NCBI GenBank assembly: GCA_964511865.1
Contig: CAZEHW010000003.1
Location: 1 to 43,027, forward strand
Source: an uncultured Hyphomicrobiales bacterium
GTDB lineage: Bacteria; Bacteroidota; Ignavibacteria; Kapaibacteriales; UBA2268
Direction: 5' to 3'
Length of the DNA stretch: 43,027 bases
Positions 5,187-43,027 of the stretch are shown here, piece by piece; positions within the stretch are counted from its first letter, which is position 1; each line of letters opens with the position of its first letter. A model generated the notes under the pieces. It saw only the letters and a list, made by a program, of their open reading frames with translations. It did no database searches and was not told where the DNA came from. A program made the translations under genes and the position numbers.

Positions 5187-5298
5187 TTAGGCTGTTAGGC
5201 TATTAGGCTATTAGGCTATTAGGCTGTTAGGCTATTAGGCTGTTAGGCTATTAGGCTGTTAGGATAATAGGTTGTTAGACTGTTAGGATATTAGGTTA
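5187..5298. repeat. 8-bp tandem repeat (TTAGGCTR), 14 units, the last 5 degenerate
   Basis: Direct reading gives ttaggctg ttaggcta ttaggcta ttaggcta ttaggctg ttaggcta ttaggctg ttaggcta ttaggctg ttaggata ataggttg ttagactg ttaggata ttaggtta. The array starts immediately after the channel stop codon (TAG 5184-5186). Confidence 0.95.
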
Positions 5299-5356: not shown

Positions 5357-6406
5357 ATGAATGAGAAAAGTGTGATATTTCCAAATACAGGGTTTAATCG
5401 CGAGCTATCGGAACGCGAGAGGGAAGTATTGCGTAGAATTATTCAGCTTTATATTTTGAAGGCATCTCCTGTCGGTTCAAGAACACTTACTAAGTATATT
5501 CAGGAGGAATTGAGTGCGGCAACAATAAGAAATGTGATGTCTGACCTCGAAGATATGAACTTCATAAGCCATCCACATACATCCGCCGGAAGAATTCCAA
5601 CGGATAAAGGATATAGGTTTTACGTTGATACTCTCGGCGAGCTTGAGATGCTTTCTAAAAATGAACTGCTTGCACTTGAAAAAACGCTGACTAATTCTGA
5701 TATGGTTTTCAAGGATGCATCGAAAATACTTGGTATATTATCGAGTTACTTAAGCATTGTTGCTATTCCTCAACTGATTGACTTAAAAGTTTTACGTCTG
5801 GAATTAATCCAGTTGTCATCTAACAGACTGCTAATTGTCATTGCACTTGATTCTAACTTTGTTAAAACTGTTACTCTGGAAACTTCATTCAGCATTGAAC
5901 ATAAACAATTAGACCAGATTTGCTCATATATTAATGAAAAAATCGGGGGTAAACCGCTGAAATTTATTCGTGATAATTTTAGAGAAATTCTTAAAGATTA
6001 CCGCTTGAAAGATACTCCCTTGATGCGGCTGTTTGTTGATTCGATTGATAATATATTGGATGTTAAAACACAAAAAGAAAATATTCATATAGCCGGCACT
6101 CCAAATTTACTTGATTATCCTGAATTTGGTAATCCGGATAGAATAAAAGGGGTAATTGAACTACTTGAAAATGAAGATATTATTGTTCATCTGCTCGAAA
6201 AACAGGAAGAAACCGGAAAAGACATAAATGTTTTAATAGGAAGTGAAATACAAAACGAATTGCTTGATGATTATGCCCTTGTCATCTCCAATTACAGAAT
6301 TGGTACTGCCCGCGGTTCAATAGGGATAATAGGTCCTAAGAGAATGCCATATGCTAAGATGATGTCTTTGGTCAAGCATGTATCGGACTTTTTGAATAAG
6401 GAGTGA
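5357..6406 (+). CDS. hrcA: Heat-inducible transcription repressor HrcA
   Basis: N-terminal winged-helix 'LSEREREVLRRIIQLYILKASPVGSRTL' and the characteristic C-terminus 'GSIGIIGPKRMPYAKMMSLV'. It sits upstream of grpE-dnaJ. Confidence 0.95.
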   Translation: MNEKSVIFPNTGFNRELSEREREVLRRIIQLYILKASPVGSRTLTKYIQEELSAATIRNVMSDLEDMNFISHPHTSAGRIPTDKGYRFYVDTLGELEMLSKNELLALEKTLTNSDMVFKDASKILGILSSYLSIVAIPQLIDLKVLRLELIQLSSNRLLIVIALDSNFVKTVTLETSFSIEHKQLDQICSYINEKIGGKPLKFIRDNFREILKDYRLKDTPLMRLFVDSIDNILDVKTQKENIHIAGTPNLLDYPEFGNPDRIKGVIELLENEDIIVHLLEKQEETGKDINVLIGSEIQNELLDDYALVISNYRIGTARGSIGIIGPKRMPYAKMMSLVKHVSDFLNKE

Positions 6407-8853: not shown

Positions 8854-10143
8854 ATGAATATGAAAGATATAATAAAGGAAGCGATATCGGATTTCCAATT
8901 GAGGAAATTAGAGGATATATTGCCAAGAGAGCTTGCTCTTCCGGTTAATACTAAGAAAATAATAAGTGTTCTTGGTGTAAGGCGAAGCGGTAAGACTTAT
9001 TTATTGCTCGATACCGTTAAAAAGCTTTTAGTCAAAGGAATAAAAATAGAGCAGATATTATATCTGAATTTCGAGGATGAACGCTTGTCTTTAAAAACAA
9101 GTGAGCTTGATTTGATATTGCAGTCGTACCGTGAACTCTTTCCTGATGCAGATTTATCAAAAGCATATTTCTTTTTTGATGAGATACAAAATGTTGATGG
9201 TTGGGAAAAATTTATACGCAGGGTTTACGACACTATAACAAAAAACATATATCTGACCGGCTCAAACTCAAAATTCCTCGGCAATGAAATAGCTTCTTCA
9301 TTGCGTGGCAGGACTGTAACTTACGAGGTGTTCCCTTTGAGTTATCGTGAGTATTTGTCGTTCGAGGGATTGAAAGCAGATAATATGAGTTCGAGGAATA
9401 AAGCCAAACTCATAAATGCATTTGATGTTTATTTGAAGAATGGAGGTTTTCCCGAAACTATAAAAATGAATGATGTTTTCAGGGATAAAACTTTGCAGGA
9501 ATATTTCAATATAATGCTGTATAAAGATATGGTCGAGAGGTATAATATATCCAACACAAATATATTGAAATATTTTCTTGAAAGAGTTTTGTTGAATTTA
9601 GGTAAGCCGACATCAGTTAATAAAATATATAATGAATTGAAATCAAATAATTACAAGACTACAAAAAACATATTGTACGATATGCTGGATTGGGCTGAGT
9701 CAATATATTATTTGTTCCGTGTTTATAAATTCAATTATTCGAGAATAGACCGCGAAAAAAGTGATAAAAAAGTATATATAGTTGATAACGGATTGGTAAA
9801 CTCATTGACTTTTCGCTTTTCCGAAGATTACGGTCAATTGCTGGAAAATCTCGTAGCAGTTCATTTGAAAAGCATATATGCAGACAAACTCTTTTACTTC
9901 AAAAATGGCAGTGAATGTGATTTTGTTGCTTTTGATAAAAATAAGCCGGATAATGTTGTGCAGGTTTCTTATGATGTTTCAGACAAGGATACATTGGCAA
10001 GAGAGCTGAGAGGGCTTTACGATGCTTGCGAATATTTGAAAATAAAAAGAGCAATAATAGTAACTCAAAGCATGGAAAAACAAATGAAGCATAATGGCAT
10101 AAGTGTGAACATAATACCAGCATATAAATATTTGCTTTTATAA
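8854..10143 (+). CDS. AAA-family ATPase (AAA_14 + DUF4143-type architecture)
   Basis: Walker A 'GVRRSGKTYLL', Walker B-like 'YFFFDEIQNVDGW', and a C-terminal region with the look of DUF4143 proteins (429 aa is typical for the family). Confidence 0.8.
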   Translation: MNMKDIIKEAISDFQLRKLEDILPRELALPVNTKKIISVLGVRRSGKTYLLLDTVKKLLVKGIKIEQILYLNFEDERLSLKTSELDLILQSYRELFPDADLSKAYFFFDEIQNVDGWEKFIRRVYDTITKNIYLTGSNSKFLGNEIASSLRGRTVTYEVFPLSYREYLSFEGLKADNMSSRNKAKLINAFDVYLKNGGFPETIKMNDVFRDKTLQEYFNIMLYKDMVERYNISNTNILKYFLERVLLNLGKPTSVNKIYNELKSNNYKTTKNILYDMLDWAESIYYLFRVYKFNYSRIDREKSDKKVYIVDNGLVNSLTFRFSEDYGQLLENLVAVHLKSIYADKLFYFKNGSECDFVAFDKNKPDNVVQVSYDVSDKDTLARELRGLYDACEYLKIKRAIIVTQSMEKQMKHNGISVNIIPAYKYLLL

Positions 10144-13080: not shown

Positions 13081-14127
13081 TTAGTTCAATATCAAATTTA
13101 TTAAATCATCGTGTATTTGTTTCCAGTTTTGGTTGAGATTGATGGTATTAAAAAGGATATCATGATCTTGAATATTAAAAACCTCATTTAATTCTCTTTG
13201 AACTGTTGGATATAGTAACATACCACGACAAGATGTGTTAATTCCACCTTTCGCTGCAATATTAGTTACATAAGCTAACATTTGGTATAAATTTTCCGAT
13301 ATGATTTTTTCAGAATCGTAATATGTTTGCAGTGCCTCTTTATAAAATTTAGTATCAATTATTAATTTATCATTTTCAAATTCTATCGAAATATCAGTTT
13401 GCATCTTTGGTAATAATTTCAATGCAGATTCATTAATTGATTTTGTGTCCCAAAAAATATCTTCTCGGTAAACTTTTGTTTTGCGGATATGCTTTGGCAA
13501 TTCATTTTTATAAAAATTTCTGACAAAATCCTCAAATAATGTTGCCATCTTCTTTTCGTCTCTGGTAAAATCTTTGAATTTATACTTACCTGACTGTTCG
13601 TCAATAAAGATATTATTATGAATTAACTCGCAAACATTTAATAAGAAATCATAAAAGTTATTGTTGCTGTTCAGTTGTATCATTCTAAAATGCTTATTTT
13701 CAATTTTAATTAAATCAATTCCACTTAATTTTAAATAAACATCTCTTAAATCACTTCGTATTTCTTTGTCAATTTTCTTCATATTCATAAGATTATGAAT
13801 AGTTGATTTAATAATCTGATTGTGCAAAACATTATGATTCAAATCATCGAAATGACAATGCATCTGTGCTTTTTTCATCAAGTTTTTCTTTAATGAAACT
13901 CCGAAATCAATCTTACCTCTTAATCTTTTTGTGTCTTCGGAAAACTCGATATAATTTCTGTCAAAGCCCCTTTTAATTAATTGATTAATTCCATTTTTTA
14001 ATACCACAGCAAACAAATCAATCAACTCAGTAAAGTCCTGAGCATTTACCGAAACCTGTTCTTTCTCTTCAAGTTTATTCCATGAATAACAGAGGAGATA
14101 ATAAATATTTTCTATCGGTATTTTCAT
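13081..14127 (-). CDS. mcrC: McrC-family nuclease subunit of an McrBC type IV restriction system
   Basis: N-terminus 'IENIYYLLCYSWNKLEE' is typical of McrC. C-terminal PD-(D/E)xK-like 'DISIEF...LIIDTKFYKE'. Its ATG overlaps the mcrB stop (ATGA at 14124-14127). Confidence 0.85.
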   Translation of the reverse strand: MKIPIENIYYLLCYSWNKLEEKEQVSVNAQDFTELIDLFAVVLKNGINQLIKRGFDRNYIEFSEDTKRLRGKIDFGVSLKKNLMKKAQMHCHFDDLNHNVLHNQIIKSTIHNLMNMKKIDKEIRSDLRDVYLKLSGIDLIKIENKHFRMIQLNSNNNFYDFLLNVCELIHNNIFIDEQSGKYKFKDFTRDEKKMATLFEDFVRNFYKNELPKHIRKTKVYREDIFWDTKSINESALKLLPKMQTDISIEFENDKLIIDTKFYKEALQTYYDSEKIISENLYQMLAYVTNIAAKGGINTSCRGMLLYPTVQRELNEVFNIQDHDILFNTINLNQNWKQIHDDLINLILN

Positions 14128-17006
14128 AGTTGAACGAGCTTTTTAATCTCATCATCAACCAGTTCGATACTATCAAACCAATATTCCCTAAGCAACGGTG
14201 CTATCTCACTTTTAACCACTTCTTCATACCATCGCCAGTCAGGATCAGGAACAATATCTTTGCCGGGACAAAAGAAACTATGACCAATGCGATAGCCCAT
14301 ACCGAGATTTTTATTATCACTAGCAATTTTTTCATTTAAAGAAATCATTTTATCAATAATCATTTCCACTATATTTTCCGTTACATTGCAGTCGTATAAG
14401 AATTTCTTGAACTTCGGTTTGGCAAATGCCGGCTCAAGAGTTATAAATCCGAATCTTCGTCTTAGTGCATAGTCAACCATTGCAAGTGAACGGTCGGCTG
14501 TATTCATTGTGCCGATGAAATATAGATTTTTTGGCAGATAAAATATTTCGTCTTCATTTTTAGAATATGTCAGTGGTATTGCAAAATTCTTTCCGCGCTT
14601 GTCCTTTTCAATTAACATCATCAGTTCCCCGAATATCTTACTGAGGTTGCCTCTGTTGATTTCATCAATGATAAAGAAATAATCGTTATCGCGATCCCAT
14701 TGTGCTTTTTTGCAGAACTCATAAAATACTCCGTTTTTTATTTCGAAACCGCCATTGTCAGTAGGTCTGTAACCTTGAATAAAATCCTCATACGAATAGG
14801 ATTGATGGAACTGTATCATCTGCACACGGCTTTCGTCCTTTTCTTCCATCATTAAATATGCGATTCGTTTTGCAACGAAGGTTTTTCCGACACCCGGAGC
14901 ACCTTGAAGTATAATGTTCTTTTTGTATTTTAAAGTGCTAATGATTTCCTCAAGTTCAGATTGTTCGATAAAAAGTTCGATTAGAGCATCATCAATTGTA
15001 TATTTTTCTAACACAACCGGAGGTTTTTTATGAACCATTTCCATAATTATATCATATTCTTCTTTGGTCAGTTTGAACAAACTTCCCTGATTGTTTTTCA
15101 TTGGTTCACAATTAAGCAATTCATTATTAGATTTGAGTTCATTCCACGTTACAGGTTTTTTGAATTCTTCGATTTTTTTGAATTCAAATTTCACAATTTC
15201 ATTATTTTCTTTGAAAATGTCCGTGACTTCACAAATGCCATCAACAATATTTTCAGGTGAAGTAATGTATCCAAGGATTTTGTCCTTTACCTGAACATTT
15301 TGGAAGTTTTTAAATATTCTTGCTTTAGTTCCCTTATCGGTAAATGATTTGTAATCATTTATAGCACCGACATTCATATCCCTGAAAGTCCAGATTTTTG
15401 GATTTGCGTTTAGCCACCAGAAGTTGGTTTCGGTGTTCGTAGATTCATTAGATTGTATAGGTAAATCAACAAGATTTTTTAATCTTTGTAGAAATTCAGT
15501 ATATTTTGTGATATTTGTGAGCGTTTTTAAAGCTAATTGATCCTTTGATTTCCATTCACCGGTTTTCAGCCATTTAACCTTTCGGCAATTCTTATATTCA
15601 TTTCTTTGCTCATCGTAGTAGAAGTCAGATTCTATTATGCCAAAACCAATTATTTTCTTTACTCCTTTTTTTGCAAAAATGAAATCTCCAATCTTTATTT
15701 CCTTAAGAAATTCGTAGCATGCTAAGCCATTGTTCACAAATGAGCTGTCATCTCCATATATTTCTTTCATTTTAACTTTGATGTCTTCTAAAGAATTATA
15801 TTTTGATAAATCCCCTAATTCATCCCAACCTATTGCACAAATTGCATTACCTATGAAGTCTTGCCATAACCTTGCTTTCTGACCGGGAGCTATAATCCAG
15901 TACTGTGGTTGGTCTGTAACAGGCAAATCACTTTCATCATAATGCTCTAAGGGTTCTTCATCTTCATCAATCTTCGCGGTATATTTTTTCTGAACTTTTT
16001 TAAATTCTGTTAAAACATCTATATCATCTAAGTTTACATTTTTACCTTTTTCGGTTAATTTCCACAAACCCCTGATTGAATTATCTAAATAATCACCATT
16101 TACCAAATACATCCTTGCCCAATGGATTTGATTATATATTTTCGGAACTCCTGTTTTAGTTTTCTCTTCTAATTCTAAGGAAGGTATTTTCATGTTTTTG
16201 GTAATTTCATCAAGAATGATATTAGATTTTGCTTCTCCGCCTAAATCTCTTAATAATTCAATTATAGGTTTATAGAATTTTAAAAATTTCGGTCCTTTTT
16301 TATTGGTTTCCACGCTATAGTTTTCTTCTTCATCTTTCTTTTCATTTTTCAATTCTTCGCATTTATAAACTTTCCAAAGGAAGTCTCCTAAATGGGATTT
16401 ATCCCAACTTTTAAAGGGTTCAACTGAACAAAGAAATTTACCAAGATGATAATTTAACAACAATACGTTTTTGTTATTAATTTCTTTGTCAATTTTTAAA
16501 TTAATGTTTTTAACCATTGGAATAAGTGCCCATGGTGCTGCAAAGTCCAAGAATTTATCAGGGAAATATAAAAACAAAATTTTAATTATAACCATATTCC
16601 AAACAGGTATTTCTATTTCAGAAATTTTATCGATTTCATCTTTTTGGACTAATTCGATTATTGATAAAATTTTGTTTTTTAAATCAAGATATTCATTTTC
16701 CAATTCCTCTGTTTCTAAAAGAAATTTTTTTCCTTTTATATGTTTGTAGTAATTTCCGTCTGATGCTCGATAAATTCCAAATTTTGAAGCATTTCCACCA
16801 CCAATTCCAAAGGGTATATTTTTCTTAAATTCCAGCCAATAACAAAAACTGTCATTATGACCTGTATATTCCTGTAAAGTCATATTTTTTAGATTTTCCA
16901 ATGGGAATCTTTTTACAAATAACTCTCTACCAGTTTTATCTTTCTTGATATCATCTTCATCAAATTCAAATGATTTTGCTTTTTGAATTAATTCTTCTAA
17001 ATTCAT
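14124..17006 (-). CDS. mcrB: McrB-family AAA+ GTPase with a roughly 690-aa multi-module N-terminal extension (uncharacterised module, Mrr_N-like winged helix, two PUA/EVE-like modules)
   Basis: C-terminal 'LQGAPGVGKTF', 'FFIIDEINRGNLSKIFGELMMLIE' and 'IGTMNTADRS' match McrB GTPase motifs. 'IIELLRDLGGEAKSNIILDEI...IHWARMYLVNGDYLDNSIRGLWKLTEKG' is Mrr_N-like. 'YWIIAPG...' and 'FWWLNANPKIW...' blocks look PUA/EVE-like. ATG 17006 with GAGG 7-10 nt upstream is preferred over TTG 17018. Confidence 0.88.
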   Translation of the reverse strand: MNLEELIQKAKSFEFDEDDIKKDKTGRELFVKRFPLENLKNMTLQEYTGHNDSFCYWLEFKKNIPFGIGGGNASKFGIYRASDGNYYKHIKGKKFLLETEELENEYLDLKNKILSIIELVQKDEIDKISEIEIPVWNMVIIKILFLYFPDKFLDFAAPWALIPMVKNINLKIDKEINNKNVLLLNYHLGKFLCSVEPFKSWDKSHLGDFLWKVYKCEELKNEKKDEEENYSVETNKKGPKFLKFYKPIIELLRDLGGEAKSNIILDEITKNMKIPSLELEEKTKTGVPKIYNQIHWARMYLVNGDYLDNSIRGLWKLTEKGKNVNLDDIDVLTEFKKVQKKYTAKIDEDEEPLEHYDESDLPVTDQPQYWIIAPGQKARLWQDFIGNAICAIGWDELGDLSKYNSLEDIKVKMKEIYGDDSSFVNNGLACYEFLKEIKIGDFIFAKKGVKKIIGFGIIESDFYYDEQRNEYKNCRKVKWLKTGEWKSKDQLALKTLTNITKYTEFLQRLKNLVDLPIQSNESTNTETNFWWLNANPKIWTFRDMNVGAINDYKSFTDKGTKARIFKNFQNVQVKDKILGYITSPENIVDGICEVTDIFKENNEIVKFEFKKIEEFKKPVTWNELKSNNELLNCEPMKNNQGSLFKLTKEEYDIIMEMVHKKPPVVLEKYTIDDALIELFIEQSELEEIISTLKYKKNIILQGAPGVGKTFVAKRIAYLMMEEKDESRVQMIQFHQSYSYEDFIQGYRPTDNGGFEIKNGVFYEFCKKAQWDRDNDYFFIIDEINRGNLSKIFGELMMLIEKDKRGKNFAIPLTYSKNEDEIFYLPKNLYFIGTMNTADRSLAMVDYALRRRFGFITLEPAFAKPKFKKFLYDCNVTENIVEMIIDKMISLNEKIASDNKNLGMGYRIGHSFFCPGKDIVPDPDWRWYEEVVKSEIAPLLREYWFDSIELVDDEIKKLVQL

Positions 17007-17246
17007 AACCACCCTCAATTATCTATTTAAAAACATTTTCTTCAAATATACCTATTTCAACGACAAATAATGTCATCTGAAATCTTAGAAACTATAATTA
17101 ATAAAATATTTACACAATTTACAAAAATTACATTTATCTTGAAACTTAAATAATTAACAAATGTGAAGGGTCGAATAACCCAGAATTGTAAATTATTTGT
17201 TATTTTTGGATTATATATCGTTATCAAATAATTATCAAAATGTACT

Positions 17247-22929: not shown

Positions 22930-23232
22930 TCAATTAATGATAATACCTGTGCGAACTATCTCATTATAAAATCCTGGAATATCCTGACTTCTAATGATAA
23001 GAACCGGTTCAATTCTAACGTCAATATCATTCCTAAGTTTCCATAGCAACTGAACTGTTTCGATATAATCACCTTGAAGTGTATTGACAATTACAGCAAT
23101 ATCAATATCACTGAACTCCTTTGCATTTCCAGTTGCATTTGAGCCAAACAAATAGACATTATCGAAATCGAGATATTTACGGATATGCTCTTTATAACCT
23201 TTTGCTATATTTATAATATCTTCTTTATCCAT
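22930..23232 (-). CDS. Minimal nucleotidyltransferase (MNT), partner of the HEPN protein
   Basis: 'YLFGSNATGNAKEFSDIDIAV' is a GS-X10-DxD nucleotidyltransferase motif. 100 aa. It overlaps the upstream HEPN gene by 22 nt. Confidence 0.85.
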   Translation of the reverse strand: MDKEDIINIAKGYKEHIRKYLDFDNVYLFGSNATGNAKEFSDIDIAVIVNTLQGDYIETVQLLWKLRNDIDVRIEPVLIIRSQDIPGFYNEIVRTGIIIN

Positions 23233-23597
23233 AGCTGTAATTCTTTAGTTTTATATAAAATTTCATTGCATTTTACTTCAGTTAGATACTGTCTGATTTG
23301 TTCTTTATATTTCGGATAGCGTGATTCTACATTTAATGGTTCAAGTTCATTTATAAATTCCTTCTGCTCCTCATCAAGCTTATCATATATATCTGTTTTT
23401 GATATTAAAAAACCAAGATTGTGGGTATAAGGAACAACCTCATTATGGATTTTAGTATAAAGGGCTTTCAATATTTTTTCAATTGACTGATGACACATAA
23501 AACCGACATATAAAAATCTTTTTGTACGCAACATGGCATCTGCGGTTTCAAGATCATATTCCGATAAATCAAGCCAATATTTAATGTTTTCCATCAT
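23211..23597 (-). CDS. HEPN-domain protein (HEPN-MNT module)
   Basis: 'YWLDLSEYDLETADAML...CHQSIEKILKALY' and 'ESRYP' are typical of HEPN (PF05168-like) proteins paired with MNTs. Confidence 0.85.
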   Translation of the reverse strand: MMENIKYWLDLSEYDLETADAMLRTKRFLYVGFMCHQSIEKILKALYTKIHNEVVPYTHNLGFLISKTDIYDKLDEEQKEFINELEPLNVESRYPKYKEQIRQYLTEVKCNEILYKTKELQLWIKKIL

Positions 23598-36139: not shown

Positions 36140-36176
36140 TTATATTTGTATATGAAAAATTTTGGGAAAATATAAT

Positions 36177-37469
36177 ATGATTTCATTGCATTTTTATCTT
36201 GATAAACCAAACGAGACAAAGTCGTCAATTGTTCTTTCGGCTTCATTTAGAGGACAAAGATTTAAATTATCGACAAAAATCAGCATTGATAATACTTCAA
36301 AAAATGAAATATGCTCAAAACTCTGGAACCCAAAAAACCAAAGATTAAAAAAAAGTGCAATAGGTTCTTTAGAATATAATTTTAAACTTGATAACTTGCA
36401 AGCCAGGATAAATGCGCTATATATTAAATCCCTTAAAATGAATCCCAAAGAACAGAAAAAATTTCTTATTAATCAAATCAAAATTCTTCTTAATCCGGAA
36501 AACGGTGGTCTTAATAATGAAATAAATTCTGATAATATGTCCCTTACAGAACATTTCGAAGATATGATTAATAAAAGAAAAGCCGGAATGGAAATAAGCA
36601 TACAAACCGGCTTGCCCTTCGGTACCGAAGTTAACAAAGCTTATCAAACTACTCTTAACCATATTAGAGAATTTGAAATAGAACAAGGATTGAAACTTGA
36701 TTTCGAAGATATTGATGAGGTCTTTTATCAGGATTTTATCAAATTTTTACTGAAAAAGGAATTGGCAAATAATACAATAGGAAAACATGTAAAAAATTTA
36801 AAGGTCTTCATGCGAAGAGCAGTAAAAAAAGAACTGACGGACAATATAAAATTTCTGGATTATAAAGTAATAGATGAAGACATTAATTCTTTTGCATTAG
36901 ACATGGATGAGTTAAAGAAAATAAAAGACCTCGATTTAAGCAGTAATGAGAAACTTGCTAAAGCCAGAGACCTTTTTCTTATTGAAAGTTTTACTTGCTT
37001 ACGATATAAAGATTTGTTCAATCTTAGTCTGGAACATATTGATTTAAAGAATCAAACAATTACTGTTCTTGTTCGAAAAACCAAGAAATATGCAGTTATT
37101 CCAATCCTACCTTTTATCAAAACGATATTTGAAAAATATAATTATAAGTTACCAAAAATGGTTATTCATACTTATAATAAACTAATCAAAATAATTGCTA
37201 AAATGGCAGGTTTAGATGATATGATTGAAATCGTAAGATATAGCGGTAACAGACGAAGAGAGTCAAGATATCCAAAATATCAATTAATTACTTCAACAAC
37301 CGCCCGATACTCATATATAACAAATTGCATAAGAAATAATTTACCGGCACAAATGATAATGCAAACAACAGGACATGTCAAATTAGAAAATTTTCTCCGC
37401 TATGAAAAAATGGTAAAAACCGAGGGAGCCGAAAGAGTAAGAGATGCTTTTAAGGATGTGGAGTTTTGA
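36177..37469 (+). CDS. Tyrosine recombinase / phage-type integrase (Bacteroidota-style, N-terminal arm-binding + SAM-like + catalytic domain)
   Basis: 'ISLHFYLDKPNETKSSIVLSASFRGQRFKLST' resembles the arm-binding N-terminus of Bacteroidetes integrases. 'LFLIESFTCLRYKDL' (catalytic R). 'TARYSYITN...MQTTGHVKLENFLRYEK' (R, H, Y). ATG 36177 is preferred over TTG 36162. Confidence 0.88.
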   Translation: MISLHFYLDKPNETKSSIVLSASFRGQRFKLSTKISIDNTSKNEICSKLWNPKNQRLKKSAIGSLEYNFKLDNLQARINALYIKSLKMNPKEQKKFLINQIKILLNPENGGLNNEINSDNMSLTEHFEDMINKRKAGMEISIQTGLPFGTEVNKAYQTTLNHIREFEIEQGLKLDFEDIDEVFYQDFIKFLLKKELANNTIGKHVKNLKVFMRRAVKKELTDNIKFLDYKVIDEDINSFALDMDELKKIKDLDLSSNEKLAKARDLFLIESFTCLRYKDLFNLSLEHIDLKNQTITVLVRKTKKYAVIPILPFIKTIFEKYNYKLPKMVIHTYNKLIKIIAKMAGLDDMIEIVRYSGNRRRESRYPKYQLITSTTARYSYITNCIRNNLPAQMIMQTTGHVKLENFLRYEKMVKTEGAERVRDAFKDVEF

Positions 37470-37528: not shown

Positions 37529-38041
37529 TTAATATATTATATCAATCTTTACCCTGCTCAAGCCAAGGATCTTTAATCCGATACCTGATGCAACATTTTC
37601 ATGCTGTAAAGGCCACCATCTTTCAATATAATGGTATATGCCATCTCTTAATCCCTCAATTACCCAAGTTGAACCGTCTAAACCGATTGGATATGGATTT
37701 TTTGTAGGAGTATTCTAAAAATCATATTTATCAATTACATTAAATAAATTATAAATATTAGGTGGAAAAAGTTTAAGATGACTGTCAATGACAATGCAAT
37801 CTTCAGTTATGGGTTTTACTTTGCTAAATTTTTGAAAATACAATTCGCCATAATCATTTTCCAAGATATTAATTGTTATTACTATCATATCATGAAAACT
37901 TCGGTCCCAAATAAAACGGTATTGATGTTTTTTGCTATCCGACTGTTCTTCAAATATTGATTTCTGATTTAATTTTGATAAAAATGTAGAATTATACTTT
38001 TCAAACATACTGTCTATTATATTTTTGGGAAAGTATTGCAT
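37529..38041 (-). pseudogene. Paralogue of the 39336-39845 gene, interrupted by a single in-frame TAG (37715-37717)
   Basis: The 108-aa ORF ends ...NVIDKYDF*. The same frame continues NTPTKNPYPIGLDGSTWVIEGLRDGIYHYIERWWPLQHENVASGIGLKILGLSRVKIDIIY* (stop 37529-37531). The paralogue has TGG (W) where this copy has TAG (plus-strand T at 37716 versus C). Confidence 0.75.
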
Positions 38042-38379
38042 CTGGGTTTCTCCATAAGAATTTTTAATTAAGGTAAAATGGTCAAAATATTATTAACTTA
38101 TAGTATAAGCGAAAATTAATATGGTTGGATCCCCAAAAAGACATGTCTCGCCAATACCACATCTGTCTTATTTTTTGTTTGGTGGAATTTTAAAAATATA
38201 AATATTAATGTAACTATTCTATATTATAAGAAGTTAAATTATTGTAGTTTTTACTTATTTTCATCAGATTTTCATGATATTGTTCAAAAAAAGTCTGTTA
38301 TATTGGTTTTACTGATAGTTTTTTTTATTTTTGTATAAGAATTATCATTTTTTTTTACTTATAATTTGAAATTTAACAT

Positions 38380-39165
38380 TTGAATAATTTAGAATTTATC
38401 ATAGGTTTAAAATTCTTCCAAAAGGGAAAATTTAATCATGCAATTAATGCTTTTAAGAAGTCTATTGAAAAAAATCCAAAAAACGCAGACTCTTACAACC
38501 ATATTGGTCTCTGTTATGATTGTATTTCCAAACATGATTTAGCAATTGAATATTTTAATAAAGCATCTGTAATTTGTTTAGAATTTAATGATTTTATAAG
38601 TTCATGTAGAATGAAAGTTCACATGGCTGATAGTATGATTAAATCATCGCTTTATAATGAGGCAGAAGTCATAATTACGAAAATTTTGAACTCTGATGTT
38701 AATTCTTTAGTTAAAGCACAAGCTTTTACAATATTGATAAACTCATTAATTCTTCAAAAGAAATATAACTATGCTTTGCAAAAATTAAAGGAGGAAGGAT
38801 TACGATATATTATTGCTCTTCAAGACAATAAAGATAATTTCGGCGTCGGAATATTTTCAATGTTAAGAGCCAGAGTTTACACTGCATTATTTAATTCAGA
38901 TAATGCTTTACTAAGTTTTGAAACAGCAAGATACTTGCTAAAAGGAAATAAATCGGCTATTGCAGAGTTAGATAATAATTATGGTGAATTTCTTTTACTA
39001 GAGAATAATCCAAAAGAAGCTTTAAGATATTTTAAAAATAGTTGGAAATATTTCAAAAAGCATAATCCAAGTTATTCAATAAATGTTATCAAAAATTTAT
39101 CTGTAGCTTATCGGAAAATTGGTAATGAAAAAAAATCAGATTATTGGATGAAATTACTCGATTAA
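38380..39165 (+). CDS. TPR-repeat protein
   Basis: 'FFQKGKFNHAINAFKKSIEKNPKNADSYNHIGLCYDCISKHDLAIEYFNKA' is a clear TPR pair, and further TPR-like helices run to the C-terminus. The start is uncertain (TTG 38380, no in-frame ATG nearby). Confidence 0.65.
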   Translation: MNNLEFIIGLKFFQKGKFNHAINAFKKSIEKNPKNADSYNHIGLCYDCISKHDLAIEYFNKASVICLEFNDFISSCRMKVHMADSMIKSSLYNEAEVIITKILNSDVNSLVKAQAFTILINSLILQKKYNYALQKLKEEGLRYIIALQDNKDNFGVGIFSMLRARVYTALFNSDNALLSFETARYLLKGNKSAIAELDNNYGEFLLLENNPKEALRYFKNSWKYFKKHNPSYSINVIKNLSVAYRKIGNEKKSDYWMKLLD

Positions 39166-39335
39166 TTTTAACTTTATGCGAAAATGCCATAATCAACTAT
39201 TCCTTTCTAATAAAACCAATAAGCTGATTTTAAAGTAATTTTAATTACATTGAATAAATGTATCAATTTTAAGTATCTTCAAATGAAATTAAAAAATAAT
39301 AATCATTGCACATTAGGTCCAGATTTTTGAATCTA

Positions 39336-39845
39336 CTAATATATTATATCAATCTTTACCCTGCTCAAGCCAAGCATCTTTAATCCGATACCTGATGCTA
39401 CATTTTCATGCTGTAATGGCCACCATCTTTCAATATAATGGTATATGCCATTTCTTAATCCCTCAATTACCCAAGTTGAACCGTCTAAACCGATTGGATA
39501 TGGATTTTTTGTAGGAGTATTCCAAAAATCATATTTATCAATTACATTTAATAAATTATAAATATTTGGAGGAAAAAGTTTAAGATGACTGTCAATGACA
39601 ATGTCATCTTCAGTTATGGGTTCTAATTTACAGAATTTTTGAAAATGCAATTCGCCATAATCATTTTCCAGGACATTAATTGTTATTACTATCATATCAT
39701 GAAAAGTACGTTCCCAAATAAAGCGGTATTGATGAATACTACTATCTGAAGATTTATCTTCGAGTGAATGATAACCCAATTTTGATAAAATTTCTGAATA
39801 GTAACGTCCCTTATAATCCCAATCACTAATTGGTAAAGTTATCAT
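39336..39845 (-). CDS. Hypothetical protein (169 aa), last gene of the island operon; intact paralogue of 37529-38041
   Basis: ORF with a conserved block 'HQYRFIWERTFHDMIVITINVLENDYGELHFQKF...FWNTPTKNPYPIGLDGSTWVIEGLRNGIYHYIERWWP'. No motif I can assign. It lies 33 nt downstream of the preceding gene. Confidence 0.75.
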   Translation of the reverse strand: MITLPISDWDYKGRYYSEILSKLGYHSLEDKSSDSSIHQYRFIWERTFHDMIVITINVLENDYGELHFQKFCKLEPITEDDIVIDSHLKLFPPNIYNLLNVIDKYDFWNTPTKNPYPIGLDGSTWVIEGLRNGIYHYIERWWPLQHENVASGIGLKMLGLSRVKIDIIY

Positions 39846-39878
39846 CGGAATCCTTCATAAAAATTTCATTTAATTCTT

Positions 39879-40217
39879 TCACTGCAGTTTCCATATATCC
39901 CAAAAGCAAGCATTCTTCTCATCATAATATCTTTCTCTGTTGTCAATAATCTCAAAGGATTTCATTTTACCAGCTTTCATGGTTATATGAATTTCTTCTT
40001 CGAATATGGCATGGAAACCGGAATTTATTTTCTTCAGTATTTTACCTTTTGGTAATTTTAATGTTCCTGAAAACCAATTTGCAAATAATGGCTCAAATAT
40101 GTTCAAACCAAAAACTCCCTTTATATTTCTTAAATACAACTTATCAACTTTTAACTCCCATATTCCTGTATATTGTCTATAGAATTGTTTGTGTTCAAAA
40201 ATACCTGTAGTGAACAT
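39879..40217 (-). CDS. Hypothetical protein (112 aa), paralogue of the C-terminal two-thirds of the 151-aa protein
   Basis: 'YTGIWELKVDKLYLRNIKG...FANWFSGTLKLPKGKILKKI...FEEEIHITMKAGKMKSFEIIDNRE' aligns with 'YIGTWEIKDDRLFLVDIIG...FADWYSGTLKILKGELLKYI...YEEEIHIVIEKGFVQSIAIIDNRD'. Confidence 0.7.
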   Translation of the reverse strand: MFTTGIFEHKQFYRQYTGIWELKVDKLYLRNIKGVFGLNIFEPLFANWFSGTLKLPKGKILKKINSGFHAIFEEEIHITMKAGKMKSFEIIDNRERYYDEKNACFWDIWKLQ

Positions 40218-40226
40218 TTTGTCGGT

Positions 40227-40358
40227 TTATTTTACTAATTTATTAACATAATCAGCATTTTTTATTTTATCCGGAATACTAATCATTAATGTGCTTTTGT
40301 TGTTCACAATCAATATTTCTTTAAACTGCATTAATATCTTATTTTCCTGTTCACTCAT
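40227..40358 (-). CDS. Candidate 43-aa ORF filling the gap between the phosphatase and the 112-aa gene (below the ORF-track cutoff)
   Basis: ATG 40358 lies 11 nt after the phosphatase stop and is preceded by AAGGA. MSEQENKILMQFKEILIVNNKSTLMISIPDKIKNADYVNKLVK*. The stop is at 40227-40229, 9 nt before the next ATG (40217). Confidence 0.35.
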   Translation of the reverse strand: MSEQENKILMQFKEILIVNNKSTLMISIPDKIKNADYVNKLVK

Positions 40359-40369
40359 TGTTGTATCCT

Positions 40370-40966
40370 TCATAAAAACTTATTACGCCATTCTCTCTTT
40401 TCAATTGAACGGATATTAGGTTCTTCTTTGATTTCTTCGAGATATTTCATCATATAAATTAACTCGTAGTCTTCCGGGTTACCTTCAAAATTTTCTATGT
40501 GTATCACATTCCCATAATTTTTTTGGTGACAAATTAATGTATTATCTATGACAATAACATTTTTTAAGTCATACCCTTTTCTTTTAACCTTTCTCAGGTT
40601 TTTTAATTGGACAGGTCCTGAGAAATAAGAACTGTATCTGTCTTTTTCTGAAATTCTGGTTGTACACTTTTTTCTTCCCCATATAAAAAGAAGTTTCCCG
40701 GTATCAGGAAAAATCTCTCTGACAACATGTTCAACATATTCCTCCGAGGCAGAAGACCAAACTGCAACCTGAAAATTAATCAGACAATATTCCAGAAACT
40801 GTTTAAGAAAAGGTCTTTTATAAACATAATATCTTTCAAACATAAAATCATGCTTATTACCATTTTTTGGGGTAATTGTTGAAGCATGAATCAATGTTTC
40901 ATCAAGGTCTAATATCAACAGTTTTTTATTGATTGCCGTTTCCATTTCATTACTTTTCAAATTCAT
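40370..40966 (-). CDS. HAD-superfamily phosphatase of the FCP1/NIF (CTD-small-phosphatase-like) type
   Basis: DxDxT motif in 'KKLLILDLDETLIHAS'. 'YVYKRPFLKQFLEYCLINFQVAVWSSASEEYVEHV' (motif II S/T). 'LKNVIVIDNT' (motif IV). 198 aa with no cap insertion, as in NIF-type phosphatases. Confidence 0.75.
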   Translation of the reverse strand: MNLKSNEMETAINKKLLILDLDETLIHASTITPKNGNKHDFMFERYYVYKRPFLKQFLEYCLINFQVAVWSSASEEYVEHVVREIFPDTGKLLFIWGRKKCTTRISEKDRYSSYFSGPVQLKNLRKVKRKGYDLKNVIVIDNTLICHQKNYGNVIHIENFEGNPEDYELIYMMKYLEEIKEEPNIRSIEKREWRNKFL

Positions 40967-40997
40967 ATTTTAATGAACTCAACAGGAAATATTTTTT

Positions 40998-41453
40998 TCA
41001 TTCCAATTTCCTCCAATCCCAAATCTTCAAATTTAATAATTCTTTCTTATCTCTGTTATCTATAATCGCTATTGATTGAACAAACCCTTTCTCAATCACA
41101 ATATGGATTTCTTCCTCGTAAATGGAATAAAATTCCATGTGAATATACTTCAATAATTCCCCTTTAAGTATTTTTAATGTTCCTGAATACCAATCTGCAA
41201 ATATTAGTTCTTTCTGAGTCTTTTTAAATATCCCGATAATATCTACAAGAAATAATCTATCATCTTTAATTTCCCAAGTACCGATATATCTTCTCCAGCA
41301 AGCCGTTGAAAAGATAATACCTCTGACGAATTGCTCCTTTTCATCATCACTAACAATTTCAATGAAATCCGAATCCTCTGGAATTTCGGGAGTACAAGCC
41401 AATGAGTATTCTTTGCCATTCATCTTTAATATTTCGTGCACTTGTGCTGTCAT
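40998..41453 (-). CDS. Hypothetical protein (151 aa), paralogue of the 112-aa protein with an extra N-terminal region of about 45 aa
   Basis: ORF in operon context, 31 nt upstream of the phosphatase gene. See the alignment with 39879-40217. Confidence 0.75.
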   Translation of the reverse strand: MTAQVHEILKMNGKEYSLACTPEIPEDSDFIEIVSDDEKEQFVRGIIFSTACWRRYIGTWEIKDDRLFLVDIIGIFKKTQKELIFADWYSGTLKILKGELLKYIHMEFYSIYEEEIHIVIEKGFVQSIAIIDNRDKKELLNLKIWDWRKLE

Positions 41454-41587
41454 AATATATTCAACATTATTCTCCTTTCATCCATCAGTAATTTTAAATC
41501 TAATTTTTAAAGATACTGTTCCTGTTGAAAATTATATTTTCTGGAATTAAATTAAATTTCCATAATATATTTTTAAGATAATTATTT

Positions 41588-43027
41588 TTATTTAAACTTG
41601 ATTCCAAAAAAACATTGGCTACCACTAGATTTATGATTTTTAATTATTTTTGATTTTATCTTAACATTGTCTTCGGAAAACCAAAGTATATCCATGAAAG
41701 GTCTATTATTTCTATTTTTCTGAACAGTTTTCAAATCAATTCCAAAAATTGCACATACTAATGACTCATTTGGAGAATCTGATATACCCATATATTCTTC
41801 TGGAAAATAAAATGATATACTATCAATACCTTTATCTCTCAAATATTCAGAGTAACATAATGCAGCATCCTCAAAAAGAAAGAGGGTTAATTCATTGGAA
41901 GCTAAATTGCTAATTGGGATAGATCCCTGATATTTATTAATTTTCATTACTCTTCTCTGCTGAGGACTTTTATTTTTATCTTCCTCCAAAGCTGTTAATA
42001 TCTCATTTAATGAAATATTATCCATTCTTAAATTGTTTACAAAACCAAAGTTTTCAAATTTTATAAAACGATTAAGATTTTCAAATTTAATTCTTGGATT
42101 AAAACCTGCTTTAACAATTACAGAATTATTATCATCTAAATATAAAATTCCTTCACCAACCCAATTGCCTTCATGAATTTCTTTAATATTTTTTGATTTC
42201 ATTCTTGCAAAAGCCATTTCTTTTATACTTGCTATTTTAAAACCACTATCTGAAAACCTTTTTAAACAATAATCTAGGTCAGATGTTCTTATCATCCATA
42301 ATTTAGGATCTGTACAAATAATATTGAAATCAGAATAATTAATTACGGAATAAATTGAAATTGTTCTATCACGAAAATTATTATTATCAATATCATCAAC
42401 AGATATAACATAATCATAATTGTTTTTACTTAATATTTCACCGATAGTTGTACCAGTAAGAGATTTTATATTATTCCCAGTTATTCCATACCATTGCCAA
42501 ATAGTTGTTTCTTGTCCATAATTAGATCCGCTCGGAAAGCAACCAAGAATGTCATCGTTAATTTTAAGTTCACGTATTCCAAAAATATCTCTTTCAGATC
42601 CAAGAATGAGTGTTTCTAAAAAAGGATATTTTGAAAGCCATTCCAATAATGCTATTTGAGATTTATTTTTATCACCTTCTGAATTATTGTTGTTATCAAA
42701 AAATGTATATTTATCACTCCATAATTTAATTTTTTCTTTCATGGTCTTTTGTCTTTCATCTTTTATTTTATTATCTGGAATTTTAATTTTTTGATCAATA
42801 TTTTGTTTACAATGCTTATTTAATTGTTCACTTGCTGATTCAAAACCAAGTTCTAGTGCTTGTTTCCAATCAGAACAAGCTTCTTCATCAGTCCCTAAAG
42901 CAAAATAGTATTTTAATACTCCACGCTCATAGTATGCTTCTCCCTGATTTGAATTAATCTTGATTGCTTGGTTATAATCTTCAAGTGCATCCTCAAATTT
43001 CATTATTTTACTTTCCGCATATCCTCT
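41588..43027 (-). CDS. TPR-containing protein with an unrecognisable C-terminal region of about 390 aa; 5' end probably outside the window
   Basis: 'FEDALEDYNQAIKINSNQGEAYYERGVLKY...ACSDWKQALELGFESASEQLNKHC' are TPR motifs. The frame stays open upstream of the ATG at 43003 (RGYAESKI-M...) and still reads like a TPR helix. The protein is therefore likely longer than 471 aa. Confidence 0.7.
   Translation of the reverse strand, partial: RGYAESKIMKFEDALEDYNQAIKINSNQGEAYYERGVLKYYFALGTDEEACSDWKQALELGFESASEQLNKHCKQNIDQKIKIPDNKIKDERQKTMKEKIKLWSDKYTFFDNNNNSEGDKNKSQIALLEWLSKYPFLETLILGSERDIFGIRELKINDDILGCFPSGSNYGQETTIWQWYGITGNNIKSLTGTTIGEILSKNNYDYVISVDDIDNNNFRDRTISIYSVINYSDFNIICTDPKLWMIRTSDLDYCLKRFSDSGFKIASIKEMAFARMKSKNIKEIHEGNWVGEGILYLDDNNSVIVKAGFNPRIKFENLNRFIKFENFGFVNNLRMDNISLNEILTALEEDKNKSPQQRRVMKINKYQGSIPISNLASNELTLFLFEDAALCYSEYLRDKGIDSISFYFPEEYMGISDSPNESLVCAIFGIDLKTVQKNRNNRPFMDILWFSEDNVKIKSKIIKNHKSSGSQCFFGIKFK

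What the first reader, a model, noticed from the sequence alone, without database searches (positions are those of the whole stretch)
39336..43027. Compact minus-strand operon of unassignable proteins around an FCP1/NIF-type HAD phosphatase: best candidate for an undescribed system
The genes are co-directional and tightly spaced. In transcription order they are: a TPR + unknown protein of about 390 aa (over 471 aa in total, open at the window edge); a 134-nt gap; a 151-aa protein; 31 nt; a 198-aa DxDxT phosphatase (LILDLDETL); 11 nt; a 43-aa ORF; 9 nt; a 112-aa protein; 33 nt; a 169-aa protein. The 151-aa and 112-aa products are paralogues of each other. The 169-aa gene has a second, nonsense-mutated copy 1.3 kb away. 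Apart from the TPR and HAD motifs I recognise no family. FCP1/NIF-like phosphatases are best known as eukaryotic protein phosphatases, and I do not recall one as the core of a bacterial operon like this, although I could not check that. The operon sits in a recombinase-associated, AT-rich island. Two hypotheses seem worth testing. (a) It is an array of orphan immunity-type genes collected next to a tyrosine recombinase, conceptually like the recombinase-associated interbacterial-defence islands of Bacteroidales. (b) It is a phosphatase-centred conflict or defence system with a TPR sensor/scaffold and small paralogous partners.
Basis: partly seen in the sequence, partly recalled or inferred. 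Interest (0 to 1): 0.75.

Follow-up and report, generated by a model that had tools for sequence, protein, structure and literature searches.

The report
Unknown beta-domain genes flanking bacterial phosphatase
The genes are real, but only a small core recurs elsewhere: an Scp/Dullard-type phosphatase gene flanked by copies of an undescribed small protein family, with function unknown, while the large TPR protein and the recombinase are just neighbours.

Summary
In detail: every ORF, gap, the 151/112 paralogy, the nonsense-mutated second 169-aa copy and the NIF phosphatase (PF03031, 120 bits) are as described.

Three corrections:
- The "43-aa ORF" and the "112-aa protein" are one gene, a third 151-family copy broken by an in-frame TAA.
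- The "unknown" 390 aa of the large protein is a small N-module plus a C-type-lectin-fold domain related to diversity-generating-retroelement variable proteins. The window has no reverse transcriptase or template repeat.
- The recombinase is convergent with the cluster, not upstream of it.

Comparative evidence shrinks the "system". The order 151fam–NIF–151fam'(–169fam) recurs in two other Bacteroidota-like assemblies, and 169fam always follows a 151fam gene (4 of 4 contexts). In 67 of 69 genomes from many phyla, 151fam has neither partner and no conserved neighbour. The large protein's relatives sit next to a P-loop kinase-like gene instead.

A Planctomycetota genome pairs 151fam with a different cap-less HAD (HAD_SAK_2), overlapping. 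One 151fam domain is fused to a DarT toxin.

No known immunity, defence or toxin family is present, and rAID criteria fail.

Most likely this is a lineage-restricted accessory operon whose functional core is 151fam plus a cap-less HAD phosphatase. That rests on gene neighbourhoods only.

The parts
41588..43027 (-). 3' part of a large gene, open at the window edge. It encodes a terminal TPR repeat (about 42836-43027), a linker, an about 110-aa N-module of an undescribed family (about 42344-42670) and a C-type-lectin-fold domain (about 41591-42310). It is a neighbour, not a conserved part of the core.
   Evidence: TPR_11 at E 3.5e-09. Only two full-length relatives exist among 5.8 billion clusters. 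A profile search splits the domain into two modules. The AF2 model has pLDDT 84. Foldseek's top hit is 5ioo_A AvpA, E 2.1e-06, prob 1.00, TMt 0.67. No RT or TR/VR repeat is present in the window.
40998..41453 (-). 151-aa protein, an intact member of an undescribed all-beta family ('151fam'). The family has an invariant N-terminus MTAQ and a CWRxYxGTW motif.
   Evidence: 81 clusters of homologues, none with a Pfam domain except one fusion. Family alignment. 69 genome loci across many phyla. AF2 pLDDT 87 with no significant PDB fold match.
40370..40966 (-). 198-aa NIF/FCP1/SCP-type cap-less HAD phosphatase. Motif I is LILDLDETL, and the motif II-IV positions align with human CTDNEP1.
   Evidence: PF03031 at 120.1 bits. 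TIGR02251 at 91 bits, below its 139-bit cut-off. Best PDB relatives are CTDNEP1 and SCP1. Orthologues are 86% identical in L008 and 71% in L089.
39879..40373 (-). Disrupted 151fam paralogue. The 48-aa and 112-aa ORFs share one frame and are split by an in-frame TAA at 40227-40229. Its start overlaps the NIF stop by 4 nt.
   Evidence: Single-frame translation. 44% identity to the 151-aa protein. The N-terminal piece hits the start of L008's 152-aa paralogue. L089 has an intact 151fam gene in the same position, also overlapping the NIF stop.
39336..39845 (-). 169-aa protein, copy A of a very rare undescribed family ('169fam').
   Evidence: Only 5 clusters in the protein search and 2 loci in 241 million metagenome records. 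It lies downstream of a 151fam gene in all four informative contexts: the window, L008, L007 and L081.
38380..39165 (+). 261-aa TPR protein, convergent with 169fam copy A and lying between the two 169fam copies.
   Evidence: TPR_1 at E 8.6e-14. 74% identical and in the same position and orientation in L008.
37529..38041 (-). 169fam copy B, a pseudogene. TGG->TAG gives a stop at 37715-37717. The 3' half is kept 96.6% identical to copy A by gene conversion.
   Evidence: The L008 orthologue is broken differently, by a frameshift near codon 23.
36162..37469 (+). Tyrosine recombinase (Phage_int_SAM_5 plus Phage_integrase), convergent with the cluster. It marks the left edge of the AT-rich stretch and is absent from the syntenic L008 block.
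   Evidence: No tRNA gene occurs in the window.

Best explanation
This is a lineage-restricted accessory operon in a Bacteroidota-type chromosome. It is not a six-part system.

The functional core is a cap-less (C0-type) HAD phosphatase of the NIF/Scp/Dullard family working with the small all-beta 151fam protein.

Shown: the two genes are adjacent and tightly spaced in three related assemblies. The NIF gene is flanked on both sides by 151fam paralogues. The NIF active-site motifs are intact.

Inferred: because cap-less HADs act on macromolecular phospho-substrates, NIF probably removes a phosphate from a protein or a nucleic-acid end. 151fam would serve as its targeting or regulatory partner, or as its substrate.

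169fam is an add-on confined to this lineage and always sits downstream of a 151fam gene.

The cluster is evolving by duplication, gene conversion and decay: two of its seven genes carry in-frame stops.

The large TPR-CLec protein and the recombinase are adjacent cargo rather than components. The TPR261 protein is conserved with the block in one other genome, and its role is open.
For: Conserved order:
- L008 has 151fam-NIF-169fam-(TPR263 on the opposite strand)-169fam'. It is collinear with window 37529-41474 but has different flanks: an OmpA-like gene upstream and SIR2 downstream.
- L089/L090 have 151fam-NIF-151fam'. NIF is 71% identical, and the next gene starts MTAQVREIL, overlapping the NIF stop exactly as in the window.
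- L081 has 151fam directly followed by 169fam.
- L007 has 151fam, a 213-aa zinc-ribbon protein, then two 169fam genes.

Independent recurrence of the pairing: in a Planctomycetota MAG (L035), a 151fam gene overlaps the start of a different cap-less HAD, HAD_SAK_2 (PF18143, E 1.5e-29). That pair is isolated by strand switches on both sides.

NIF looks catalytically competent: the DxDxT motif and the motif II-IV positions align with CTDNEP1.

No intergenic terminator-like site lies within the cluster.
Against: - 151fam is solo, with unrelated neighbours, in 67 of 69 genomes. It does not need a HAD partner.
- The three NIF-containing instances come from related, low-GC Bacteroidota-like assemblies. 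They may reflect inherited synteny rather than selection for linkage.
- The second 151fam copy and the second 169fam copy are broken here, so not all parts are needed.
- NIF homologues on megaplasmids and in huge phages have no 151fam neighbour.
- There are no expression, interaction or activity data.
- The substrate class is inferred from general knowledge of cap-less HADs (my own knowledge), not tested.
Confidence: 0.42

Rival explanations
1. The cluster is a junk-yard accessory islet. Unrelated, individually dispensable small genes have accumulated, duplicated and decayed in an AT-rich, recombination-prone stretch beside a tyrosine recombinase. Their adjacency is inherited synteny among close relatives and has no functional meaning.
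For: - Two in-frame stops in paralogous copies, and a different lesion in L008's copy B.
- Gene conversion between the direct repeats.
- Low GC.
- Gene content is shuffled between relatives: the L007 and L008 clusters c15, c16 and c17 appear in different orders.
- 151fam and NIF are each solo elsewhere.
- The large protein and the recombinase are not conserved with the block.
Against: - The 151fam-NIF-151fam' order is kept at only 53-71% protein identity, with the same stop/start overlap.
- 169fam always follows 151fam (4 of 4 contexts).
- An independent 151fam-HAD_SAK_2 overlapping pair occurs in another phylum.
Confidence: 0.3
2. The cluster is a conflict (defence or counter-defence) module. 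151fam would be a sensor or targeting domain of nucleic-acid-centred conflict systems, and the HAD phosphatase would heal or modify phosphorylated nucleic-acid ends or proteins during phage or toxin attack. The TPR-CLec protein might add a ligand-binding sensor.
For: - A 151fam domain is fused to a DarT ADP-ribosyltransferase and followed by the NADAR-DarT1 antitoxin (L032).
- A 151fam gene sits between a Csm6-like gene and Cas6 (L094).
- A 151fam gene sits next to NucS_C (L091).
- A 151fam gene overlaps the RNA-repair-type HAD_SAK_2 (L035).
- Some neighbours are type I restriction, MazE, TnsA or relaxase genes.
- CLec-fold relatives of the large protein are true DGR targets lying among toxin-antitoxin genes.
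- NIF homologues occur in two huge phages.
Against: - No PADLOC hit for any product.
- Most 151fam neighbourhoods are housekeeping or heterogeneous.
- Each of the defence-type contexts is a single instance.
- No nuclease, toxin or NTPase lies in the window cluster.
- The TPR-CLec gene is not conserved with the core.
Confidence: 0.15
3. The cluster is an orphan-immunity array of the rAID type: small cytoplasmic immunity proteins against contact-dependent toxins, captured by the neighbouring recombinase.
For: The products are small cytoplasmic proteins, paralogues are arranged in tandem, pseudogenes are present, GC is low and a tyrosine recombinase is adjacent.
Against: - The recombinase is on the + strand and the cluster on the - strand, so the rAID-1 criterion of co-directional downstream genes fails (criteria from 10.1101/471110).
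- No repeated intergenic motif.
- No Imm, SUKH or other immunity family in Pfam or NCBIfam.
- One gene is an enzyme with an intact active site.
- The same block in L008 lacks a recombinase.
- 151fam neighbourhoods elsewhere are not immunity arrays.
Confidence: 0.08

Closest known systems
Eukaryotic NIF/FCP1/SCP/Dullard phosphatases (Pfam PF03031; human SCP1, CTDNEP1)
   Same: Full-length HMM match at 120 bits. The DxDxT nucleophile motif and the motif II-IV positions align with CTDNEP1. The domain size matches, and there is no cap domain.
   Different: Bacterial and 198 aa, with no extra domains. It scores below the NCBIfam Dullard-like cut-off (91 vs 139 bits). No RNA polymerase II CTD or lipin substrate exists in bacteria. 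The gene is flanked by 151fam genes. My literature searches found no characterised prokaryotic member.
AvpA-type C-type-lectin-fold variable proteins of diversity-generating retroelements (PDB 5ioo; PMC5006420)
   Same: The C-terminal ~240 residues of the large protein are predicted to adopt this fold. They are sequence-related (E down to about 1e-17) to a family of 210-290-aa proteins. One member of that family, P0105, has an adjacent RT and a TR/VR pair in which all 7 mismatches fall on TR adenines.
   Different: The window has no RT and no TR/VR repeat. The VR-equivalent segment is conserved among the three full-length homologues. The domain is fused to a TPR repeat and a novel N-module. 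AvpA itself is not detectable by sequence profile.
rAID-1, recombinase-associated acquired interbacterial defence clusters of Bacteroidales (10.1101/471110)
   Same: Low-GC cluster of small genes beside a tyrosine recombinase in a Bacteroidota genome.
   Different: The genes are convergent with the recombinase, not co-directional downstream of it. No integron-like intergenic repeats and no homologues of immunity families were found.
HAD_SAK_2 (PF18143), the cap-less HAD of predicted 'Swiss Army Knife' RNA-repair proteins, and the PNKP 3'-phosphatase
   Same: Another cap-less HAD family found overlapping a 151fam gene in L035. This suggests that 151fam partners with this class of phosphatase.
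   Different: It is a different HAD family from the window's NIF. The window protein's PNK3P match is only the N-terminal motif (E 0.054). No ligase, kinase or nuclease repair partner is present in the window cluster.
DarT1-NADAR toxin-antitoxin
   Same: One 151fam domain is fused N-terminally to DarT and followed by the NADAR antitoxin.
   Different: No DarT or NADAR occurs in the window. This is a single fusion instance.

Membership tests
NIF/FCP1/SCP HAD phosphatases (PF03031) | Profile match above the curated cut-off over the whole domain | tested here: met
   120.1 bits against 21.8, profile positions 1-160 of 160.
NIF/FCP1/SCP HAD phosphatases (PF03031) | Catalytic DxDxT motif plus HAD motifs II-IV | tested here: met
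   LILDLDETL. The segments VAVWSSAS, KNLRKV and VIVIDNT align with the CTDNEP1 motifs.
NIF/FCP1/SCP HAD phosphatases (PF03031) | Membership of the eukaryotic Dullard-like subfamily (TIGR02251 cut-off) | tested here: not met
   91.4 bits against a cut-off of 139.15. The protein belongs to a separate prokaryotic/phage branch.
NIF/FCP1/SCP HAD phosphatases (PF03031) | Phosphoserine/phosphothreonine protein phosphatase activity | not testable with these tools
   Needs an enzyme assay.
DGR variable protein (CLec fold) | C-type-lectin fold at the C-terminus | tested here: met
   Foldseek hit to 5ioo_A, E 2.1e-06, prob 1.00, on a model with pLDDT 84.
DGR variable protein (CLec fold) | Nearby reverse transcriptase | tested here: not met
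   No RVT family in any of the window ORFs of at least 100 aa that were scanned. Sequence beyond 43027 is unavailable.
DGR variable protein (CLec fold) | Template repeat matching the variable region, with adenine-specific mismatches | tested here: not met
   No repeat of 41500-42100 anywhere in the window. Positive control: L084 VR/TR.
rAID-1 (Bacteroidales) | 5' XerD-like recombinase at least 44% identical to BF9343_RS08045 | not testable with these tools
   The reference sequence is not on hand. The window recombinase is a Phage_int_SAM_5 type.
rAID-1 (Bacteroidales) | Two or more genes co-directional and downstream of the recombinase | tested here: not met
   The recombinase is on the + strand. 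The cluster genes are on the - strand and read towards it.
rAID-1 (Bacteroidales) | GC of 41% or lower | tested here: met
   25-29%. The whole window is also below 41%.
rAID-1 (Bacteroidales) | Homology to immunity families; integron-like intergenic repeats | tested here: not met
   No Pfam or NCBIfam immunity family. No intergenic repeat family.
Known anti-phage defence systems (PADLOC-DB 2.0) | Any component matching a defence-system profile | tested here: not met
   0 families for all nine products at E up to 0.1.
Polymorphic toxin / immunity locus | Adjacent toxin domain or secretion-associated N-terminal domain | tested here: not met
   No toxin family was found. The large protein's C-terminus is a CLec fold that is conserved, not polymorphic, among its homologues.
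Conserved operon | Same gene order in other genomes with different flanks | tested here: inconclusive
   Met for the core in L008, L089/L090, L081 and L007. All of these are related low-GC assemblies. Not met for the large protein or the recombinase. 151fam is solo in 67 of 69 genomes.

The most novel reading that the evidence does not exclude
151fam would be a previously unrecognised sensor or targeting domain of prokaryotic conflict systems. It would recruit cap-less HAD phosphatases (NIF here, HAD_SAK_2 in Planctomycetota) to a phosphorylated macromolecule. The same domain would be reused as the N-terminal regulator of a DarT1 toxin and as a type III CRISPR accessory gene. On this reading the window cluster is a new phosphatase-based defence, counter-defence or damage-repair module. 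Its neighbouring TPR-N-module-CLec protein could be a ligand sensor whose relatives pair instead with a P-loop kinase, giving a kinase/phosphatase swap.
Probability: 0.15. Interest if true: 0.75.

Novelty: categorically new. Interest (0 to 1): 0.45.

Why it matters
Scp/FCP1/Dullard-type phosphatases are textbook eukaryotic protein phosphatases, and my literature searches found no characterised prokaryotic member. A conserved bacterial partner family would give a first handle on what the prokaryotic and phage versions act on.

The work also defines three protein families absent from Pfam and NCBIfam:
- 151fam, found in 69 species genomes of many phyla.
- The very rare 169fam.
- The N-module that travels with a P-loop kinase-like gene.

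It further shows a DGR-type lectin fold used without a retroelement in a Bacteroidota protein.

If the 151fam-HAD pairing is functional, it adds a new two-gene module to the repertoire found in variable genomic islands. If it is not, the region is an ordinary decaying accessory islet.

The label 'categorically new' applies only to this small core. It reflects the lack of any described analogue, not proof that the core is a working system.

Tried and rejected
- PADLOC, PHROGs and NCBIfam scans of all products gave nothing beyond TPR, HAD and recombinase matches.
- PDB sequence searches with the 151fam, 169fam and large-protein profiles found no hit.
- Foldseek of the 151fam model found nothing significant in the PDB and only a marginal match to an uncharacterised phage protein in BFVD.
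- The 151fam and 169fam profiles are unrelated to each other.
- DGR hypothesis for the large protein: rejected for this window. No RT and no TR/VR repeat are present.
- The P-loop kinase-like partner of the N-module is absent from the window.
- Phage or plasmid origin is unlikely. Neither 151fam nor a close NIF relative appears in IMG/VR. The CLec family member P0103 is absent from phage and plasmid records.
- Sigma-70 promoter, Bacteroidetes -7 motif and terminator scans were at chance level and uninformative.
- No Rfam family and no tRNA were found.
- The exact-sequence look-up of the window's own 151-aa protein found no other contig, so the window could not be extended past 43027.
- The two literature searches on NIF-type (PF03031) phosphatases found no paper on a prokaryotic member.

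Full report
**1. The observation**

The edge gene stays open to 43027. Pfam confirms a full-length NIF domain in the 198-aa product (PF03031, E 9.6e-35, 120 bits) and a TPR repeat at the start of the visible part of the edge gene. The 151-, 112- and 169-aa products match nothing in Pfam, NCBIfam or PADLOC.

The 151- and 112-aa products are 44% identical. The 169-aa gene has a second copy at 37529-38041 that differs by a TGG->TAG change and is otherwise near-identical in its 3' half. GC is 25-29% across 36-43 kb, and a tyrosine recombinase lies at 36162-37469.

One correction concerns the 43/48-aa ORF and the 112-aa ORF. They are in the same frame and are separated only by TAA plus three codons. 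The short ORF is the diverged N-terminal part of a 151-family protein. The cluster therefore has five genes, one of them interrupted.

**2. The large protein**

Among 5.8 billion clusters, only two proteins (P0001, P0002, about 362 aa, 47-49% identical) share its non-TPR part. A full HMMER profile search splits it into two pieces:
- An N-module, which matches stand-alone 111-125-aa proteins.
- A larger module, which matches about 190 stand-alone proteins of 210-290 aa.

Neither group has a Pfam match.

An AF2 model (pLDDT 84) matches AvpA, the C-type-lectin-fold variable protein of a Nanoarchaeota diversity-generating retroelement (5ioo_A, E 2.1e-06, prob 1.00, TMt 0.67; PMC5006420).

One sequence relative, P0105, is a true DGR target. 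It is followed by an RVT_1 gene, and its 3' end repeats 410 nt downstream with all 7 mismatches at template adenines. Another relative, P0104, sits in an archaeal contig.

The window has no reverse transcriptase among the ORFs scanned and no repeat of the gene's 3' part. The VR-equivalent segment is conserved among the three full-length homologues. This is therefore a static lectin-fold domain.

The N-module is followed by a P-loop, guanylate-kinase-like gene in all three other contexts: L001, L002 and L083. No such gene exists in the window. None of these relatives lies near 151fam, NIF or 169fam.

**3. The 151 family**

It has 81 clusters and 69 loci among 185,579 species genomes. These span Bacteroidota, Chloroflexota, Desulfobacterota, Fibrobacterota, Planctomycetota, Pseudomonadota, Cyanobacteriota and other phyla. 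The N-terminus MTAQ and a CWRxYxGTW motif are nearly invariant.

The AF2 model is confident (pLDDT 87) and all-beta. It has no significant PDB neighbour.

Clustering of 970 neighbouring ORFs found no conserved partner. Pfam scans of 87 and 59 neighbours gave a heterogeneous list with no immunity families among the families listed.

NIF lies next to 151fam in only one of the 69 genomes, and 169fam in two.

Informative exceptions:
- Fusion to DarT, followed by the NADAR-DarT1 antitoxin (L032).
- Fusions to an acetamidase/formamidase domain and to a TFIIB repeat.
- A copy between a Csm6-like gene and Cas6.
- A copy next to NucS_C.
- In a Planctomycetota MAG, a 151fam gene that overlaps the start of a HAD_SAK_2 phosphatase gene, with that pair isolated by strand switches.

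**4. The conserved core**

- L008 (MAG GCA_043804925.1) is collinear with window 37529-41474. The order is 151fam (59%), NIF (86%), 169fam (75%), a TPR263 protein on the opposite strand (74%), then 169fam' (81%). The flanks differ: an OmpA-like gene upstream, SIR2 downstream, and no recombinase.
- L089/L090 carry 151fam (53%), then NIF (71%), then the start of another 151fam gene overlapping the NIF stop. This is exactly the window's arrangement, with the second copy intact.
- L081 has a 151fam gene directly followed by 169fam.
- L007 has 151fam, a 213-aa zinc-ribbon protein, then two 169fam genes.

169fam is extremely rare: 5 clusters and 2 metagenome loci. It follows a 151fam gene in all four contexts.

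Within the window and within L008, the 3' halves of the two 169fam copies are 95-97% identical. Between the genomes they are 86-89% identical. The 5' halves are most similar between the copy-B orthologues (88%). The duplication is therefore old, and gene conversion homogenises the 3' halves. Copy B is broken by different lesions in the two genomes.

**5. NIF elsewhere**

tblastn finds homologues at 26-40% identity in two huge-phage genomes and on five megaplasmids. They are annotated only as 'HAD family hydrolase', sit in unrelated contexts and have no 151fam or 169fam nearby. The closest solved structures are human CTDNEP1 and SCP1, with catalytic motifs aligned. Literature searches found nothing on prokaryotic members.

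**6. Interpretation**

The six-gene 'system with a TPR sensor' is not supported. The rAID-type immunity reading fails the orientation, repeat and immunity-homology criteria of 10.1101/471110. No known defence system is present.

What remains is a small, lineage-restricted core, 151fam-NIF-151fam'(-169fam). Its one independent echo is the 151fam-HAD_SAK_2 pair.

I take the most likely reading (0.42) to be an accessory operon in which a cap-less HAD phosphatase acts on a macromolecular phospho-substrate together with 151fam. The substrate class is inferred from what is generally known of cap-less HADs (my own knowledge). The partnership is inferred from gene neighbourhood only.

The main rival (0.30) is a decaying accessory islet whose gene order is merely inherited. 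A conflict-module reading (0.15) draws on the DarT, CRISPR and RNA-repair contexts, each seen only once.

**7. Verdict**

The core has no described analogue, but the evidence that it is a working unit is comparative and thin. Interest is moderate.

Noticed in passing
window 13081-17018 (- strand): A McrBC-type pair. The McrC-like gene is at 13081-14127. It is preceded by a 964-aa protein combining Mrr_N, EVE and AAA_5 (McrB-like GTPase) domains. This looks like a modified-base-sensing type IV restriction system.
   Followed up: no
window 22930-23597 (- strand): An overlapping HEPN (128 aa) and minimal nucleotidyltransferase (100 aa) gene pair, typical of a HEPN/MNT toxin-antitoxin module.
   Followed up: no
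L084 4634-6815 (also L085, L086): A complete diversity-generating retroelement: a CLec-type target gene (P0105), VR at 5218-5266, TR at 5628-5676 with all 7 mismatches at TR adenines, then an RVT_1 gene. It is embedded among PIN/RHH and PemK/MazE pairs.
   Followed up: partly
L001 1768-3271; L002 254-1886; L083 627-1708: The about 110-aa N-module of the large protein, whether fused or stand-alone, is followed in all three contexts by an overlapping P-loop, guanylate-kinase-like gene of an undescribed family. This is a conserved pair of unknown function.
   Followed up: partly
L032 7947-9795: A 151fam domain is fused to the N-terminus of a DarT ADP-ribosyltransferase (PF14487) and followed by a NADAR-DarT1 antitoxin gene, in a Moraxellaceae MAG.
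   Followed up: partly
L094 2476-5566: A 151fam gene (P0052) lies between a Csm6-like (Cas_Cas02710) gene and a Cas6 gene, i.e. inside a type III CRISPR-Cas neighbourhood.
   Followed up: no
window 37529-38041 and 39336-39845; L008 9122-9631 and 10927-11438: The two 169fam copies show concerted evolution. The 3' halves are homogenised within each genome (95-97%), while the 5' halves stay diverged (67-70%). Copy B is inactivated independently in the two genomes.
   Followed up: yes
L007 3796-4437 and L008 1458-2099: A 213-aa protein with an N-terminal CPxC...CxxC zinc ribbon (weak Cys_rich_CPCC match) recurs near 151fam/169fam genes in both relatives. In L007 it occupies the NIF position.
   Followed up: no
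L078 6001-6693: P0104, a member of the CLec-related family, lies in an archaeal contig beside the exosome (Rrp41/42/4), SBDS and proteasome-alpha genes, on the opposite strand.
   Followed up: no
window 8854-10143: An AAA_14 plus DUF4143 ATPase gene lies immediately after the hrcA-grpE-dnaJ heat-shock genes.
   Followed up: no
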